A stretch of DNA of 64,000 nucleotides from Rhabdothermincola salaria (GCF_021246445.1 NZ_JAJQXW010000002.1:682001-746000), one strand, 5' to 3'. Positions 3,001 through 9,000 are shown, counted from the first letter of the stretch. A program made the numbers.

Positions 3001-6000
3001 CCCCTTGTTGGCCGCAGTGCTCGGTCGTCTGTCCGAGGCCTTGGTCGGCGGCGAGCTCGACGTCCTCGGGCTGCAGCTGGCCGTCCCGGGGGTCCGGCTG
3101 GCCCTGTGGCTGGCCGCGGTCATCATCGTCGGCGCCGGGCTGGCCGCGTGGGCATCGCTGCGGGCCGGTGAGCGGGCGTCGCGGGCCCAGTCGTCTGCGC
3201 ACCCCTCCGGGCACGGTCACCGGTGACCGCCCCCGTGGAGGGTCGCTTCATCGCCTTCGAGGGCGGCGAGGCCTGCGGCAAGAGCACCCAGGCCCGCCTT
3301 CTCGCCGACGCGCTGGGGGCGGTGCTCACCCGTGAGCCCGGCGGCACCGCCATCGGCGCCCAGCTGAGGGCGCTGATGCTGTCACCCGACACCCACGCTC
3401 TCGACGACCGGGCCGAGGCGTTGCTCATGGCCGCCGACCGGGCCCAGCACGTGGCCGAGGTCGTGCGCCCGGCGCTGGCCGCCGGCCGCCACGTGGTCAC
3501 CGACCGCTACGCGGGCTCGTCCGTCGCCTACCAGGGCTATGGGCGGGGGCTGCCTCCCGACGAGGTCCAGTCGCTCTCGCAGTGGGCCACTGCGGGGTGC
3601 TGGCCCGACCTCGTGGTCGTGCTGGTCGTGCCCCCGTCGGTGTCCGTTCTGCGCCTCGGCGGCGAGCACGATCGGATGGAGGCCGCCGGCGACGAGTTCC
3701 ACGCCCGGGTCCTCGACGGCTTCCTGCGCCAGGCCGAGGCCCGGCCCGACCGTTGGGTGGTCCTCGACGGCGACCGGCCCGTCGACGAGGTCCACCACGC
3801 CGTGCGGGCCGTCGTGCGCGAGCGGCTACAACTGCTCCCATGACGTCGTTGTCCGAGCAGCCCGTGCTGAGCGCCGAGGCCGAGGGGGTCGACCTGTGGG
3901 CCGACGTCGTCGGCCAGGACGCGACCGTGGCCGAGCTGCGGGCCGCGGTCGACGCCCCGGTGCACGCCTACCTGCTGGTGGGGCCCCGAGGCAGCGGCAA
4001 GCGGGCCCTGGCGGCCGCCTTCGCCGCCGCGCTGCTCTCACGCGACCGGGTGGGCCCGGACGCGGCCCGCCACGCCCGCCTGGCCCTGGCCGAGGCCCAC
4101 CCCGACCTCACCGTGATCGAACGCAAGGGCGCCTCGATCTCGGTGGAGCAGGCCGACGAGATCATCGCCGCCGCCTGGCGGGCTTCGGTCGAGGGCGGAC
4201 CCAAGGTCCTGGTCCTCGACGAGTTCCACCTCGTCACGTCAGCCGGTCCCAAGCTGCTCAAGTCGATCGAGGAACCGCCGGCGGGCACGGTCTTCGTGGT
4301 GCTGGCCGAGCAGCTCACCGCCGACCTCGTCACCATCGCCAGCCGCTGCGTGCGAATCGACGTTCCGGCCGTGGACGACGCCGCCGTGGCCGAGCGGCTG
4401 GTGGCCGAGGGCGTCGACCCCGAGCGCGCCGCCGATGCGGCCGCCGCCGCGGTGGGCGATCTGCGCCGGGCCCGGCTGTTGGCCACCGACGACCGCGTGG
4501 CGCTGCGCCGCCGCGCCTGGCACGCCGTGCCCGACCGCCTCGACGGCACCGGTGGTCGGGCGGTGGAGGCGGCCGACGAGCTGCTGGCCATGATCACCGA
4601 CGCCATGGCCCCTCTGGCCGAGGCTCAGGCCGCCGAGCTGGCCGAGCTCGAGGAGCGGGTCAAGGCCCGGGGAGAGCGGGGGTCCGGGCGGGCCGACCTG
4701 GTGGCCCGCCACAAGCGCGAGGAGCGTCGCTATCGCACCGACGAGATCCGTGCCGGCCTCACCGAGCTGGCCCGTCGGTATCGCGACGAGCTGACCGTCG
4801 CCGCCCGCCCCCAGGCTTCGCTGGCAGCCATCGACGCCGTCACCGAGCTGGCCGACGAACTGGTGCGCAACCCCAACGAGCGCCTCCAGCTGGTGGCCCT
4901 GTTCGTCCGCCTCAGCAACCTCGACACCCGCTAGGCCGGTCGAGGAGCGTCCGCGGGGCGGTCGTCGTCCGCCCGCCACGGGCTGGTCCCGACGCCGGGG
5001 CGGGGCGCTACCATCGTCGGACCCGCCCGGGTAGCTCAGTCGGCAGAGCAGCTCACTCGTAATGAGCAGGTCAGGAGTTCGATTCTCCTCTCGGGCTCCA
5101 ACAGATCCCCCGCTCCGGGCAAGGGGTCCCTCGTGACCGAGCGGCCCGAGCCGTGCCTCACGTGGTCGGCCCCGGCGTCTCGCTCAGCTGGTCGACGAGG
5201 GCGTCGTAGGTAGCGGCCACGGTGGGCCAGGCGAAGCGGGCGACGTGGGCCCGGGCCGCGCCGGCGGCGGCGCGGCGGCCCTCGTGGTCGGTGAGGGCGG
5301 TGCGCAACGACCGCACCAGGTCGTCCTCGTCGTCGTAGAGGTACGGCTCGGGGGTGGGGACGAGCTCGGGGTAGGCGAGGCGCCGGGGGAGGACCGCCGA
5401 CGCGCCGGCGGCCATGGCCTCCACCACCGCGATGCCGAAGAACTCGTGCCGGGCGGTGCTCACGACCACGTCGGCCCGGCCGATGAGGTCGACGTAGCCG
5501 GCCCGGTCGGCGGTGCCGAAGTGCACGATCCGTGGCCCGAGCCGGTCGCGCGCCTCGGCGAAGGCGGGAGGAACCACCCGGAAGCTCTCGCCGGCGACGG
5601 CGACCTCGAAGGCGACCCCTTGGTCGGCCAGCGCGTGCAGCGCGGCGAAGAAGTCCTCCGGAGCCTTGTCGTACTCCCAACGGTGGTTCCAGAGCACCAA
5701 GGGCACCCGGTCGGGGTCCGGCGGGCGGTCGGGGAGGACGAACAGCTCGGCGTCGACGCCGATGGGCACCACCGTCGAACGAGCCGCCACCTCGTCCAAC
5801 CGGTGGTCGTGGCGGCGATCCGGGAAGCGGGACAGGAAGTCCGGCAGGGCGTCGAGGACCTCCGTGCGGTGGAACTCGGAGTTGAACACCACCCGGTCGG
5901 CGGCGGCCATGCTCAGCCAGTTGGTCATGGCGTAGGTGTGATCCGGGGGACCCTCGCGGGGCGGGGGGTAGGTCAGCTGGTTCTCGTGGAAGTACACGAC

Positions 6001-9000
6001 GACGGGAACGCCGGCGAGCGATCGCCGGGCCATCCCGAGCATGGCCGGCACGTGCACCATCTCGCTCACGACGAGCACGTCGGGGCGGCCATGGAGGGCT
6101 ACGTGCCCGTCGACCTGTTCGGCCATGGTCAGCGCCGCGCCCTGCATCCGCCACTTCCACGACGTGCCGGGATGCGTGACCACGGTGACGTCGTGACCGC
6201 TGTGGGCGGCCAGCCCCTCGGCCCACGCCCGGTGCGATGCGGTGGCGTAGGGCTCGCAGAGGAGGACCCGTCGACGGGTCACGAACCCGTCGGGGTCGGT
6301 CCCTCGGGGACATCACCCGCACCGCCGTCGAGCGGTTCGAGCACGAAGAGCCGGATCGTCCTCGAGGTGACCCGCTCCTGGTAGGCGCGGTAGCCGCCGT
6401 AGATGCCGGCCGAGGCGGCCCAGATCCGCTCGCGCTCGTCGTCGGTGGCGGGCCGGGCCCGTGCCCGGACCGATCGCTGCCGGTACTCCACGGTGGCCTC
6501 GGGGTCGGCCTCCAGGTTGAGCACCCACGCCGGGGTGGAGGGCTGCCCGAAGTTGGTGCCCAACAGGGTGAGGTCGTCGTCGAGGGGCACCGAGATGAGG
6601 GGCGTGCTGCGGGGTCGGCCGCTGCGCCGCCCGGTCGTGGTGACGGTGAGCACCGGGAGGCCGGCGAGCACGCCCGGCAGGCTGGCGCGGCCCCGGGTGA
6701 GGCGGTGGGTGAGACGGTCGAGCGGGGGCAGCAACCGGGCGAACAGCCAGGCCCCGGGTCGGGTGGACGCGCCCGACTGCACCAGGCGCTGCACGACGTT
6801 GGGTGGCTGGTGGCGGTAACCGAGGTCGCGGCACAGGCCCATGGACCCGAAAGCTAGCCACTGCCGGGCGTCGGAGGGGCGGCCGGGTCGGCCCCGGCCG
6901 AGGGGTGGTCGGCACGGATCGCTGCTAGAACGGATCGATGGCCGACCAGGCGACGTTCGCGGACCAGGCGATGGAGTACATGCCGTCGCTCTACGCGGCC
7001 GCTGTGCGCATGACGCGCAACCCCTCCGATGCCGAGGACCTGGTGCAGGAGACGTACCTCAAGGCCTACCGAGGGTTCGGCGGGTTCCAGGAGGGCACCA
7101 ACCTCAAGGCCTGGCTGTACCGCATCCTCACCAACACGTTCATCAACTCGTACCGCTCCAAGAAGCGCCGGCCCGACGAGACCGAGCTGGACGAGGTCGA
7201 GGACCTCTACCTCTACCGCCGCCTCGGTGGGCTGGAGGCCGCTCAGGCCGGCCGCAGCGCCGAGGACGAGCTCATGGACTGGTTCACCGACACCGAGGTG
7301 AAGGACGCCATCGAGGCCCTCCCCGAGCAGTTCCGCCTGGCCGTGCTGCTGGCCGACGTCGAGGGGTTCTCCTACAAGGAGATCGCCGAGATCCTCGACA
7401 TCCCCATCGGTACCGTCATGAGCCGCCTGCACCGGGGAAGAAAGTCGCTGCAGAAGGCGTTGTACGAGTTCGCCCTCGAACGTGGGCTCACCGGTCGTCG
7501 GCCCAGTGTCGACGACACCGCCCCGACGGACGACCGCGAACCGGCGCACACCGGTTCGTCCCGCACCGACGACGAATGACGGACATGGCCGACCACCACC
7601 ACCACGACGACCGGCCCACCGACTGCGAGGAAGCCCTCGCGGAGATCTACACGTTCCTCGACGGCGAGCTCACCGAGGCCAAGCGCACCGCCATCGCCTC
7701 CCACCTCGAGGGCTGCAACCCGTGCGTGGAGGTCTTCGACTTCGAGGCCGAGCTGCGCATGGTCATCTCCACCAAGGCCACCGAGCCGGTGCCCGAGTCG
7801 CTGCGGCTGCGGATCTCCAAGACGCTGCTGTCGTTCGGCGGCGACGAAGCCACCGACGACGACGACGACCGCGCCGCCTTCTGAGTTCGCCGCCCCAGGC
7901 CCTAGGATCGATCCTCATGGAACTCCTGTCCGTGGTCTGGTCCTACTGGATCGGCGTCGCTCTCGTCGTGCCGGCCATCCTCCTCGTCGTCGGCATCATC
8001 GGCATGTACGTCTACAAGGTCGTCGTCCCCCGCTACCCCAAGCGCTGAGGCGACGATGGCCGGAGCAGTCGACTGGGCCTTCGCCGAGAAGGTCGCCGTC
8101 CGCGTCGCCGGCCGTGAGCCCTTCGCCCTCTCCTACCACCACGACTCGCTGGCCCCGGACTTCGCCCGCTTCACGGCCCAGGCCGAGGAACTGGTCGAGG
8201 CCGAGACCGGCCTGCGGTCCCTGGCCGGTCCCGCTCGCGCCCGGGTGACCGACCGACCGGGGTGGGTGCGGGCCAACCTGGCCTCGTTCCAGCGGCTGCT
8301 GCGGCCCCTCCTCGACCGCTTCGGCGAACGGGTCGACTCCTCGCCCCTCGCCCCGGTCACCACCCGTCTCGCCGGGGCCGAGCTGGGCATGATGCTCGGT
8401 TGGATGAGCACCCGGGTGCTGGGCCAGTACGACCTGTTGGTCATCGAGGAGGAGAACCCCCACGAACAGGACCTCGTGTACTACGTGGGCCCCAACGTGC
8501 TGTCGATCGAGAAGCAGTTCGCCTTCCCGCCCGGTGAGTTCCGGTTGTGGTTGGCCCTGCACGAGGTGACCCACCGGGCCCAGTTCACGGGCGTCCCCTG
8601 GTTGCGCGAGCACTTCATCGGGTTGGTCCACCAGACCCTCGAGGCGGTCGAGCCCGACCCCCAGCGCCTCTTCGACGCCCTCGGGCAGCTCACCGAGTCG
8701 CTGCGCGCCGGGCGCAACCCGCTCGCCGACGGTGGCATCGCCACGCTGTTGGCCGGGCCCGAGCAGCGGGCCGTGCTCGACCAGGTCACCGGTCTCATGA
8801 GCCTGCTCGAGGGCCACGGTGACATCACCATGGACCGCGCGGGACAGGGCCTGGTCCCCAGCGCCGACCGCTTCGGGCGCGCCCTCCGCCAGCGCCGCCA
8901 GTCGGCGTCGGGGCTGGCCAAGCTGCTCCAGCAGATCATCGGGCTCGAGGCCAAGCTCAACCAGTACGCCGAGGGGGAGGCCTTCATCGAGGCCGTCGAG

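What a model noticed while it worked through the whole genome (the two positions that open the first line are those of the whole stretch)
5158..6282. Bacterial ortholog of the animal tRNA-queuosine mannosyltransferase QTMAN in a genome with the full queuosine pathway
g02439 (374 aa) is a full-length homolog of the animal tRNA-queuosine alpha-mannosyltransferase (QTMAN/GTDC1), with its signature N-terminal QTMAN_N domain plus a GT4 glycosyltransferase domain, in a bacterium that also encodes the complete de novo queuosine route. I read it as a tRNA glycosyltransferase that puts a sugar on queuosine-34 (a bacterial glycosyl-Q such as manQ on tRNA-Asp). New would be that sugar-modified queuosine, held to be a vertebrate/animal speciality, exists in bacteria and that the animal enzyme has a bacterial origin.
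Evidence so far: pfam.tsv: QTMAN_N (PF12038) + Glyco_trans_4_4/Glycos_transf_1; six-frame hit 2.7e-53, 181 bits vs cut 25. swissprot.tsv: all five listed hits are animal QTMANs (fly, zebrafish, frogs, mouse), 28.6-32.8% identity over residues 6-327, best E 1.6e-47. Q pathway present: FolE g02448, QueD g03176, QueE g01642, QueC g01643, QueF g01291, Tgt g00403, QueA g00402, QueG g00208, plus QNG1-like Q_salvage g01295. Phyletic pattern: QTMAN_N found in 15 of 401 sampled Actinomycetota genomes; all 15 also have QueA, against 270 of 401 in the same sample. relatives.tsv: family in 6871 of 189,784 bacterial species genomes, 258 of 2718 Acidimicrobiales. Homologs 40-52% identical in 12 loci of other Actinomycetot [...]
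(Added by a program. Inside this text positions count along the whole contig: contig position 682,001 is position 1 of the stretch shown here. "Call 12" and the like, gene names such as g00115 and contig names such as C1 are that model's own, and its searches are not shown. The text may have been shortened before it was handed on; [...] marks where a part breaks off. The agent that wrote the report below was given it as the finding of a first reader that could run no searches.)

Follow-up and report, generated by a model that had tools for sequence, protein, structure and literature searches.

The report
Bacterial homologue of queuosine-tRNA mannosyltransferase
This bacterial gene is a full-length relative of the animal enzyme that puts mannose on the tRNA base queuosine, and it occurs only in genomes able to make queuosine, so bacteria may also sugar-coat this base, though no experiment shows it yet.

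Summary
Window 5158-6282 (-) encodes a 374-aa protein with an end-to-end QTMAN_N domain (179 bits against a cut-off of 25) followed by a GT4 domain. The genome encodes FolE, QueD, QueE, QueC, QueF, Tgt, QueA and QueG.

- **Co-occurrence with queuosine genes.** All 79 QTMAN_N-positive genomes of 401 sampled Acidimicrobiia have QueA, against 223 of the other 322. All 26 positives of 301 sampled Chloroflexota have Tgt, against 233 of the other 275. Tgt was found in 48 of 50 other carrier genomes. The two exceptions are MAGs that also lack the universal TrmD.
- **Gene context.** The gene sits among housekeeping genes, not in glycan clusters, and was not found on phages or plasmids.
- **Points against.** No queuosine gene neighbours it. 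The statistics are weak at family level (p about 0.02). I could not align any animal sequence.
- **Complication.** The genome also encodes GluQRS, which occupies the same Q hydroxyl on tRNA-Asp in E. coli. The sugar and the target tRNA therefore remain open.

Databases already name these proteins "putative tRNA-queuosine alpha-mannosyltransferase" automatically. I found no paper on them. My best reading is a Q34-tRNA glycosyltransferase, with confidence about 0.55.

The parts
5158..6282 (-). QTMAN-like (DUF3524) glycosyltransferase gene, 374 aa, GTG start
   Evidence: ORF. GC3 0.94. Pfam QTMAN_N plus GT4 domains. AlphaFold2 model with pLDDT 96.1 and pTM 0.93, GT-B fold.
5755..6270 (-). QTMAN_N domain (residues 5-176), the presumed acceptor-binding half. 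Carries the family motifs GGSH (S16, H17), WKWR (W42-R45), YFHENQLTYP (Y97-P106) and FNS (F133-S135).
   Evidence: profile 1-168 of 168. (six-frame hit at these coordinates). Conservation in 105 diverse relatives.
5251..5715 (-). GT4 C-terminal (nucleotide-sugar) domain, residues 190-344. Has invariant R201 and K206, and the [E/D]280-x7-E288 motif.
   Evidence: Glycos_transf_1, 40.8 bits. R201 105 of 105, K206 105 of 105, E/D280 105 of 105, E288 104 of 105.
6279..6842 (-). Upstream gene of the deazaflavin (F420H2)-dependent nitroreductase/quinone reductase family. Its TGA stop overlaps the GTG start of the glycosyltransferase gene (GTGA), so the two are probably co-transcribed and translationally coupled.
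   Evidence: Pfam PF04075 96.3 bits. NCBIfam TIGR00026 104 bits. Sequence read. The pairing was not seen in the 80 loci or in 10 same-order genomes.
5025..5100 (+). tRNA-Thr(CGU), convergent with the glycosyltransferase gene. Marks one edge of the two-gene indel.
   Evidence: aragorn (contig position 687025-687100). Rfam tRNA 66.7 bits at 5025-5097.
5101..6937 (.). About 1.8 kb segment (glycosyltransferase plus deazaflavin oxidoreductase) lying between tRNA-Thr and the ECF sigma gene. The segment is missing at this site in two genomes of the same family.
   Evidence: In G002 and G019 the order is topA-MFS-tmk-holB-tRNA-Thr-ECF sigma-Zincin_2-tilS, with the sigma gene starting 2 nt after the tRNA. 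No flanking direct repeat of note.

Best explanation
The gene encodes a cytoplasmic, retaining GT-B (GT4-type) glycosyltransferase of the QTMAN/GTDC1 family. I propose that it transfers a hexose from a nucleotide sugar to a hydroxyl of the cyclopentenediol ring of queuosine at position 34 of one or more GUN-anticodon tRNAs (Asp, Tyr, His, Asn). That would make a bacterial glycosyl-queuosine.

Shown: family membership, an intact catalytic apparatus, the presence of the substrate pathway, and strict co-occurrence of the family with Q genes.

Inferred: the acceptor is Q34-tRNA, with the C-terminal domain holding the NDP-sugar through R201, K206 and E288, and the QTMAN_N domain holding the flipped-out Q through the WKWR and YFHENQ motifs.

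Unknown: the sugar and the tRNA species. In this genome tRNA-Asp is an uncertain target because GluQRS is also encoded.

The gene is an accessory one that is gained and lost often. Here it sits with a deazaflavin oxidoreductase gene in a 1.8 kb indel beside tRNA-Thr.
For: 1. End-to-end QTMAN_N match at 179 bits plus GT4 domains. No curated bacterial NCBIfam family claims it; the best is EpsE at 47 bits against a cut-off of 400.

2. The acceptor-side motifs are nearly invariant in 105 relatives that are 33-50% identical to the query and come from 50%-identity clusters: H17 105 of 105, W42 104, R45 103, H99 104, E100 105, Q102 104, S135 105. This fits one fixed acceptor across phyla.

3. The Q pathway is complete in the genome.

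4. In the Acidimicrobiia sample, PF12038 is in 79 of 401 genomes and QueA in 302 of 401. All 79 carriers are in the QueA list, checked by hand, against 223 of 322 non-carriers. Hypergeometric p is 9.5e-12 by genome, 1.2e-7 by genus (55 of 192 genera against 151 of 192) and 0.018 by family (14 carrier families, all within 49 QueA-positive families of 63).

5. In the Chloroflexota sample, PF12038 is in 26 of 301 genomes and Tgt in 259 of 301. All 26 carriers have Tgt, checked by hand.

6. Tgt was found in 48 of 50 carrier genomes from other phyla. The two without it also lack TrmD (0 of 2), which was found in all 10 bacterial control genomes. In addition, 40 of 40 sampled family relatives of each have Tgt.

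7. Context is housekeeping. Among 140 immediate-neighbour ORFs of the 80 loci there are 130 Pfam families and no glycosyltransferase or sugar-nucleotide family in the 25 commonest. In one Acidimicrobiia lineage (6 loci) the gene lies between alr and tsaE-tsaB-rimI-tsaD. TilS lies 2.9 kb away in the window.

8. There are no matches in 50,697 phage or 72,556 plasmid records and no PADLOC family.

9. None of the 14 model genomes used as controls carries the family. The lack of reports of glycosyl-Q in model bacteria is therefore not evidence against it.
Against: - No queuosine gene is a neighbour in any of the 80 loci or in 10 same-order genomes.
- The co-occurrence is weak once relatedness is allowed for (family-level p 0.018). 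Genome size or lifestyle could confound it, and I ran no control family.
- In Chloroflexota and the other phyla Tgt is so common (86% and more) that 26 of 26 and 48 of 50 say little.
- The proteins are acidic (median pI 6.2; query pI 5.7, net charge -14). Only three conserved basic positions lie outside the sugar-nucleotide site: K43, R45 and K/R168. There is thus no obvious large RNA-binding surface in the sequence.
- Foldseek finds only small-molecule, lipid or glycan GT4 enzymes (MshA, GlgM, BshA, SPS, PimA, a pterin glucosyltransferase) at TM about 0.7. No RNA-modifying enzyme appears, and no QTMAN structure exists in the PDB to compare with.
- GluQRS in the same genome competes for the allyl-OH of Q on tRNA-Asp if it acts as in E. 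coli.
- I could not align an animal QTMAN, so identity of the acceptor site with the characterised enzyme is not shown here.
Confidence: 0.55

Rival explanations
1. It is a QTMAN-family glycosyltransferase whose bacterial acceptor is not tRNA-bound queuosine. The acceptor would be a soluble small molecule, such as a free 7-deazapurine or pterin-like compound, a low-molecular-weight thiol precursor or a compatible solute. On this view the animal enzyme acquired its tRNA specificity later.
For: The nearest solved folds all act on small or lipid acceptors: MshA, BshA, GlgM, sucrose-phosphate synthase, PimA and a tetrahydrobiopterin glucosyltransferase (9v0l). The proteins are acidic with few conserved basic residues. 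No Q gene is a neighbour. Many carriers are marine or halophilic lineages by their record titles. In the window the gene is coupled to a deazaflavin-dependent oxidoreductase, a small-molecule enzyme.
Against: The strict presence of QueA or Tgt in carriers (79 of 79 and 26 of 26) is not expected, unless the small molecule itself derives from the Q pathway. The acceptor-side motifs are nearly invariant across phyla. There is no recurring metabolic partner gene that would make or use such a product. The oxidoreductase pairing is unique to this genome among the 90 other loci examined.
Confidence: 0.22
2. It glycosylates another macromolecule: a different modified nucleoside in RNA or DNA, or a protein such as a translation factor, in the manner of EarP on EF-P.
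For: Neighbours are often DNA replication or repair genes, or RNA-related genes. These include recR directly upstream in 8 Acidimicrobiia loci, dnaX in 10 loci, holB in the window, UDG, MutY-like HhH-GPD/NUDIX_4 (3 of 140), and cold-shock genes in 10 Chloroflexota loci.
Against: None of these neighbours is kept across lineages; the commonest non-shadow cluster reaches 17 of 80 loci and is an ABC ATPase. There are no copies on phages, where DNA-glycosylating enzymes are typical. This rival gives no reason for the Q-pathway dependence.
Confidence: 0.1
3. It is an ordinary GT4 of cell-envelope or exopolysaccharide synthesis, as JGI's automatic name 'glycosyltransferase involved in cell wall biosynthesis' suggests, or part of an anti-phage 'GT4-conflict' system.
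For: JGI names. Weak NCBIfam similarity to EpsE and HpsP (47 and 39.5 bits). PF20706 GT4-conflict at 25.4 bits.
Against: All those scores are below their cut-offs (400, 550 and 26 bits). There is no glycan cluster around the gene in 80 loci. There is no PADLOC match and no phage or plasmid copies. The N-terminal domain is the family-specific QTMAN_N, not a generic one.
Confidence: 0.05

Closest known systems
Animal QTMAN (GTDC1), tRNA-queuosine alpha-mannosyltransferase
   Same: Same two-domain architecture by Pfam: QTMAN_N over its whole length plus GT4. The lysine of the RWExDK motif is invariant (K206); human K296 is required for manQ formation (bioRxiv 10.64898/2026.06.28.735034, passages). 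From memory only, and not tested here, human GTDC1 carries look-alikes of the GGSH, WxWR, YFHENQLxYP and HRWExDK motifs.
   Different: It is bacterial and about 80-90 residues shorter than the human protein as I recall it, with no long linker. The organism makes Q itself instead of salvaging queuine. Sugar, tRNA and activity are unknown.
GluQRS (YadB), glutamyl-queuosine tRNA-Asp synthetase
   Same: It is the only known bacterial enzyme that decorates the cyclopentenediol of Q34. It is encoded in this genome too (TIGR03838, 301.5 bits, cut-off 276.7).
   Different: It has an unrelated fold (a truncated GluRS) and different chemistry (an aminoacyl ester, not a glycoside). Among 78 other carriers in Acidimicrobiia only 5 pass the GluQRS cut-off, and 4 more score 269-275 bits; all 9 are in this genome's order. 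The two genes are therefore neither linked nor exclusive.
Retaining GT4 enzymes MshA, BshA, GlgM, PimA
   Same: GT-B fold with TM 0.67-0.73 to the model, the [E/D]x7E motif and the R/K pair.
   Different: Only 13-20% identity. Their N-terminal domains bind inositol phosphate, malate, glucose-1-phosphate or phosphatidylinositol. The QTMAN_N motifs are specific to this family.
QTGAL (B3GNTL1), the galactosyl-Q enzyme of tRNA-Tyr
   Same: Same kind of product, a glycosylated Q34 (reviewed in PMC11755703, passage).
   Different: It is a different glycosyltransferase family. I did not search for it in this genome.

Membership tests
QTMAN/GTDC1 family (PF12038 + GT4) | N-terminal QTMAN_N domain over its full length | tested here: met
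   179 bits against a cut-off of 25, residues 5-176, profile 1-168 of 168. 181.4 bits in the six-frame search.
QTMAN/GTDC1 family (PF12038 + GT4) | C-terminal GT-B nucleotide-sugar domain with an intact R/K pair and acidic-x7-E motif | tested here: met
   Glycos_transf_1 at 40.8 bits. R201, K206 and E/D280 in 105 of 105, E288 in 104 of 105. Model pLDDT 96.1 with a GT-B fold.
QTMAN/GTDC1 family (PF12038 + GT4) | Catalytic lysine equivalent to human K296 | tested here: inconclusive
   K206 is invariant in the bacterial alignment. K296 is required in human cells. The two could not be aligned because no animal sequence was available.
QTMAN/GTDC1 family (PF12038 + GT4) | Orthology with the characterised animal enzymes (reciprocal similarity, phylogeny) | not tested
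The searches list only the best 120 or 150 hits and I could confirm no animal sequence among them.
QTMAN/GTDC1 family (PF12038 + GT4) | The organism contains the acceptor, Q34 in tRNA | tested here: met
   Genes for FolE, QueD, QueE, QueC, QueF, Tgt, QueA and QueG. Genes for tRNA-Asp, Asn, His and Tyr with G34. This is genetic potential only.
QTMAN/GTDC1 family (PF12038 + GT4) | The family occurs only where a tRNA-guanine transglycosylase / Q pathway exists | tested here: met
   79 of 79 carriers with QueA. 26 of 26 with Tgt. 48 of 50 with Tgt. The 2 exceptions lack TrmD as well.
QTMAN/GTDC1 family (PF12038 + GT4) | Transfers mannose from GDP-mannose to Q34 of tRNA-Asp in alpha linkage | not testable with these tools
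   Needs biochemistry or tRNA mass spectrometry.
Envelope/exopolysaccharide GT4 enzymes | Gene lies in a cluster with other glycosyltransferases, sugar-nucleotide or export genes | tested here: not met
   No such family among the 25 commonest of 130 Pfam families in 140 immediate neighbours of 80 loci. No such recurrent cluster.
GT4 of conflict/anti-phage systems (PF20706) | Passes the family cut-off; associated with defence genes or mobile elements | tested here: not met
   25.4 bits against a cut-off of 26. No PADLOC family. No phage or plasmid match.

The most novel reading that the evidence does not exclude
Glycosylated queuosine is not an animal speciality. A widespread accessory bacterial enzyme family makes a hexosyl-Q on tRNA in lineages that synthesise Q de novo. 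The family has about a thousand 50%-identity clusters at E<=1e-30. By record titles it occurs in Actinomycetota, Chloroflexota, Bacteroidota, Acidobacteriota, cyanobacteria, delta-proteobacterial/Thermodesulfobacteriota and Myxococcales lineages; the Atlas clusters add Planctomycetota and Pseudomonadota. On this reading animals obtained both the base queuine and the enzyme that decorates it from bacteria. In genomes such as this one, which also have GluQRS, two alternative decorations of Q34 (sugar or glutamate) would coexist, either on different tRNAs or in competition.
Probability: 0.3. Interest if true: 0.8.

Novelty: new member of a known kind. Interest (0 to 1): 0.62.

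Why it matters
Recent chemistry papers state that sugar-modified queuosines occur in vertebrates and that gluQ is the bacterial derivative (PMC10690763, abstract). 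If this family makes glycosyl-Q in bacteria, three things follow:
- the catalogue of bacterial tRNA wobble modifications grows
- a cheap bacterial system becomes available for studying what Q glycosylation does to decoding and tRNA stability
- the question of where the animal enzyme came from opens

The claim is directly testable. Cultured carriers exist (Geomonas and Geothermobacter strains). E. coli has Q but lacks the family (0 of 14 control genomes), so it can serve as a clean host for gain-of-function tests.

Tried and rejected
- **Animal QTMAN sequences.** I tried to obtain them for an alignment, a residue check or a tree. The search for homologous proteins and the search of protein representatives list only the best 120 or 150 hits, and I could confirm no animal sequence among them. 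The 'longer' search gave two fusion proteins.
- **Solved QTMAN structure.** None was found by sequence or by fold.
- **Conserved operon partner.** None was found.
- **Possible counter-examples.** G420 and G447 lack Tgt, QueA and QueF above cut-off, and show only short PP-loop-type hits to QueC. I rejected them as counter-examples because both also lack TrmD and 40 of 40 relatives of each have Tgt.
- **Insertion signature at the tRNA-Thr indel.** No flanking repeats were found.
- **Protein charge as a clue to RNA binding.** Not informative.
- **Literature.**
  - 'QTMAN': 14 papers.
  - 'DUF3524': 0 papers.
  - 'GTDC1' + 'queuosine': 5 papers.
  - 'mannosyl-queuosine' + 'bacteria': 47 papers, 25 listed.
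  - 'GTDC1' + 'bacteria' + 'homolog': 16 papers.
  - Six spellings of glucosyl-, hexosyl- and glycosyl-queuosine: 0 papers.
  - None of the listings or passages I saw deals with bacterial homologues.
  - Zhao et al. 2023 (Cell) and the 2024 MMBR review of 7-deazaguanines are not held and may mention them.

Full report
**What is there.** Window 5158-6282 on the minus strand is an open frame of 374 codons with a GTG start. It has the codon-position composition of a real gene in this 72% G+C genome: GC3 0.94 and GC2 0.50. Its product (P0001) matches Pfam QTMAN_N (PF12038) from the first to the last profile position, residues 5-176, at 179 bits against a cut-off of 25. After that come the usual overlapping GT4 models, with Glycos_transf_1 at 40.8 bits. 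No curated NCBIfam model claims it; the best is EpsE at 47 bits against a cut-off of 400. The figure it quoted (2.7e-53, 181 bits) is reproduced by the six-frame search.

**The genome.** The assembly has 3.9 Mb in 7 contigs and is 97.8% complete. It encodes:
- Tgt and QueA side by side
- QueG
- QueC, with QueE next to it
- QueF
- QueD
- FolE, which lies in the window within the tilS-hpt-ftsH-folE-folP block

It has one gene each for tRNA-Asp(GUC), Asn(GUU), His(GUG) and Tyr(GUA). It also encodes a GluQRS above the curated cut-off (301.5 against 276.7 bits).

**The family.**
- A search of 1.84 billion cluster representatives finds 4807 at E<=1e-3 and 1009 at E<=1e-30.
- In the 5.8-billion-protein set, 4547 of the 8000 scored candidates pass 1e-5. 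The best 120 all carry PF12038. Sources name them 'DUF3524 domain-containing protein' or, at JGI, 'glycosyltransferase involved in cell wall biosynthesis'.
- An alignment of the query with 104 full-length representatives (33-50% identical to it) has invariant H17, E100, S135, R201, K206, G231 and G283. It has near-invariant W42, W44, R45, Y97, H99, Q102, P106, N134, W198, W202, D205 and E288.
- The C-terminal residues are the standard nucleotide-sugar apparatus of retaining GT4 enzymes. The N-terminal ones (GGSH, WKWR, YFHENQLTYP, FNS) are specific to this family and sit in the half that binds the acceptor in GT-B enzymes.
- The AlphaFold2 model is confident (pLDDT 96.1, pTM 0.93). Foldseek places it among MshA, GlgM, BshA, sucrose-phosphate synthase and PimA at TM about 0.7 and 13-20% identity.
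- No QTMAN structure is in the PDB by sequence or by fold.
- From memory only, human GTDC1 has look-alikes of the same N-terminal motifs. I could not test this, because no tool returned an animal sequence (see Tried and rejected).
- Human K296 is needed for manQ formation (bioRxiv 10.64898/2026.06.28.735034, passages). The invariant K206 is its likely counterpart, but that is inference.

- *Acidimicrobiia.* In an even sample of 401 genomes of the window's class (completeness at least 85), PF12038 is in 79 and QueA in 302. I compared the two lists by hand. All 79 carriers have QueA, against 223 of the 322 non-carriers. Taken naively this gives p = 9.5e-12. QueA absence, however, is a trait of whole families (for example f3, 1 of 17). 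By genus the figures are 55 carrier genera of 192 against 151 QueA-positive genera (p = 1.2e-7). By family the 14 carrier families all fall within the 49 QueA-positive families of 63 (p = 0.018; I assembled the family counts from the rows shown).
- *Chloroflexota.* In a second sample of 301 genomes, PF12038 is in 26 and Tgt in 259. All 26 carriers have Tgt.
- *Other phyla.* I tested 50 of the 80 carrier loci. The tool takes 50 per call, and I mostly kept those on longer contigs. Of these, 48 lie in genomes with Tgt.
- *The two exceptions.* G420 is a Chloroflexota MAG and G447 a Flavobacteriales MAG. Both also lack QueA, have only short PP-loop-type hits to QueC and have no QueF above cut-off. 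Both also lack TrmD (0 of 2), which was found in all 10 bacterial control genomes. In addition, 40 of 40 sampled relatives of each have Tgt. I read them as incomplete bins, not as counter-examples.

The background tallies include genomes that the tool marks as unpublished. None of these is a carrier. In sum, the necessary condition is met everywhere it could be checked, but the evidential weight is modest.

**Context.** I clustered all ORFs of the 80 loci (up to 8 kb on each side) and of the window.
- Apart from shadow frames of the gene itself, no neighbour is shared across lineages. The commonest cluster is an ABC ATPase in 17 of 80 loci.
- Synteny exists only within lineages:
  - dnaX ... 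recR directly upstream, and glpX downstream, in 8 Acidimicrobiia loci
  - alr upstream, and S58 peptidase, UDG, tsaE, tsaB, rimI, tsaD downstream, in 6 others
  - a convergent cold-shock gene in 10 Chloroflexota loci
  - an unannotated 85-aa ORF directly upstream in 11 Rhodothermales/Bacteroidota loci
- A Pfam scan of 140 immediate neighbours gives 130 families with no glycosyltransferase or sugar-nucleotide family among the 25 commonest. Three of the 143 picked ORFs, the longest, were dropped because of the residue limit.
- The gene has no match in phage or plasmid collections and no PADLOC family.

This is the pattern of a scattered, cytoplasmic, stand-alone enzyme, as tRNA-modification genes usually are. 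It is not the pattern of an envelope glycosyltransferase. It gives no positive link to Q.

**The gene in this genome.**
- Its GTG start overlaps the TGA stop of an upstream gene of the deazaflavin-dependent nitroreductase family.
- The pair lies between tRNA-Thr(CGU) (5025-5100) and an ECF sigma gene.
- In two genomes of the same family that lack PF12038, the order topA-MFS-tmk-holB-tRNA-Thr-sigma-Zincin_2-tilS is kept and the sigma gene starts 2 nt after the tRNA. The 1.8 kb pair is therefore an indel. It has no flanking repeats.
- Only 1 of 10 other sampled genomes of the family carries PF12038. Its copy is 48.6% identical and lies about 320 kb from the syntenic site.
- Ten carriers of the same order share none of the window's neighbours.

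The gene is thus accessory and mobile on an evolutionary scale.

**Which tRNA, which sugar?** Nothing here decides this.
- gluQ of E. coli is the alpha-carboxyl ester on the allyl-OH of Q (PMC10690763, abstract and opening text).
- The mannose of manQ is on the allylic 3-OH (abstract of PMC12518689 in the listing).
- Since this genome has GluQRS, a mannose on tRNA-Asp would compete with glutamate.
- Among the 78 other Acidimicrobiia carriers only 5 pass the GluQRS cut-off, and 4 more come close. All 9 are in this genome's order. In most carriers Q34 of tRNA-Asp would therefore be free.
- In Aedes aegypti, manQ is on tRNA-Tyr (PMC11705514, abstract and passages), which shows that the family's tRNA target can differ.
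- One metagenomic protein fuses the whole enzyme to a GH2 beta-mannosidase-like region (P0273). This is a single case and a faint hint of mannose chemistry.

**Comparison with what is known, and novelty.**
- By architecture the protein is a member of the QTMAN/GTDC1 family. The defining activity is untested.
- Automatic names 'putative tRNA-queuosine alpha-mannosyltransferase' are already attached to bacterial clusters in the ESM Atlas, so the homology is not a discovery.
- I found no paper that discusses bacterial homologues or a bacterial glycosyl-Q. The two most relevant papers could not be read.
- I rate it a new member of a known kind, with a testable and moderately surprising implication.

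**Verdict.**

| Reading | Confidence |
|---|---|
| Q34-tRNA glycosyltransferase | 0.55 |
| Same family, but a small-molecule acceptor | 0.22 |
| Another macromolecule | 0.10 |
| Envelope or defence GT4 | 0.05 |

The remainder is unassigned. The specific reading 'alpha-mannose on tRNA-Asp' I would put at about 0.2.

Noticed in passing
window 5101-6937: The glycosyltransferase gene and the overlapping upstream deazaflavin-dependent oxidoreductase gene form a 1.8 kb indel between tRNA-Thr(CGU) and an ECF sigma gene. Two genomes of the same family have the tRNA followed 2 nt later by the sigma gene. No flanking repeats or integrase were seen.
   Followed up: yes
G000 contig C2:139143-139979 (outside the window; locus L098): A GluQRS (glutamyl-Q tRNA-Asp synthetase) gene above the curated cut-off sits in the same genome as the QTMAN homologue. 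Two different decorations of Q34 are therefore predicted in one organism.
   Followed up: partly
proteins P0273 (1244 aa), P0272 (785 aa), P0078/P0082/P0085/P0090 (about 450 aa): Rare fusions of the whole enzyme occur. One has a C-terminal GH2 beta-mannosidase-like region, one an N-terminal M20/M28 peptidase, and several a C-terminal Amphi-Trp domain (PF20068). Each long fusion rests on one sequence cluster and could be a gene-calling artefact.
   Followed up: partly
loci L019, L028, L029, L036, L038, L059 (about 6900-12500 in each): In one Acidimicrobiia lineage the gene lies on the same strand between alanine racemase and the t6A genes tsaE-tsaB-rimI-tsaD, with an S58 peptidase and a uracil-DNA glycosylase in between.
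   Followed up: partly
loci L046, L051, L052, L055, L057, L068, L069, L072, L078, L079, L085 (for example L051:7753-8010): A conserved 85-aa ORF with no Pfam family lies directly upstream of the gene (median gap -18 nt, same strand) in 11 Rhodothermales/Bacteroidota loci.
   Followed up: no
Chloroflexota genomes (for example G513:C4:9943-10998): Many Chloroflexota carry a second, more divergent TGT-family gene (about 290-330 bits, profile positions 7-337) besides the canonical Tgt. Its role was not examined.
   Followed up: no
locus L031:4317-6293: The DnaB helicase gene near the Caldilineaceae copy contains an intein (Intein_splicing, 97.7 bits).
   Followed up: no
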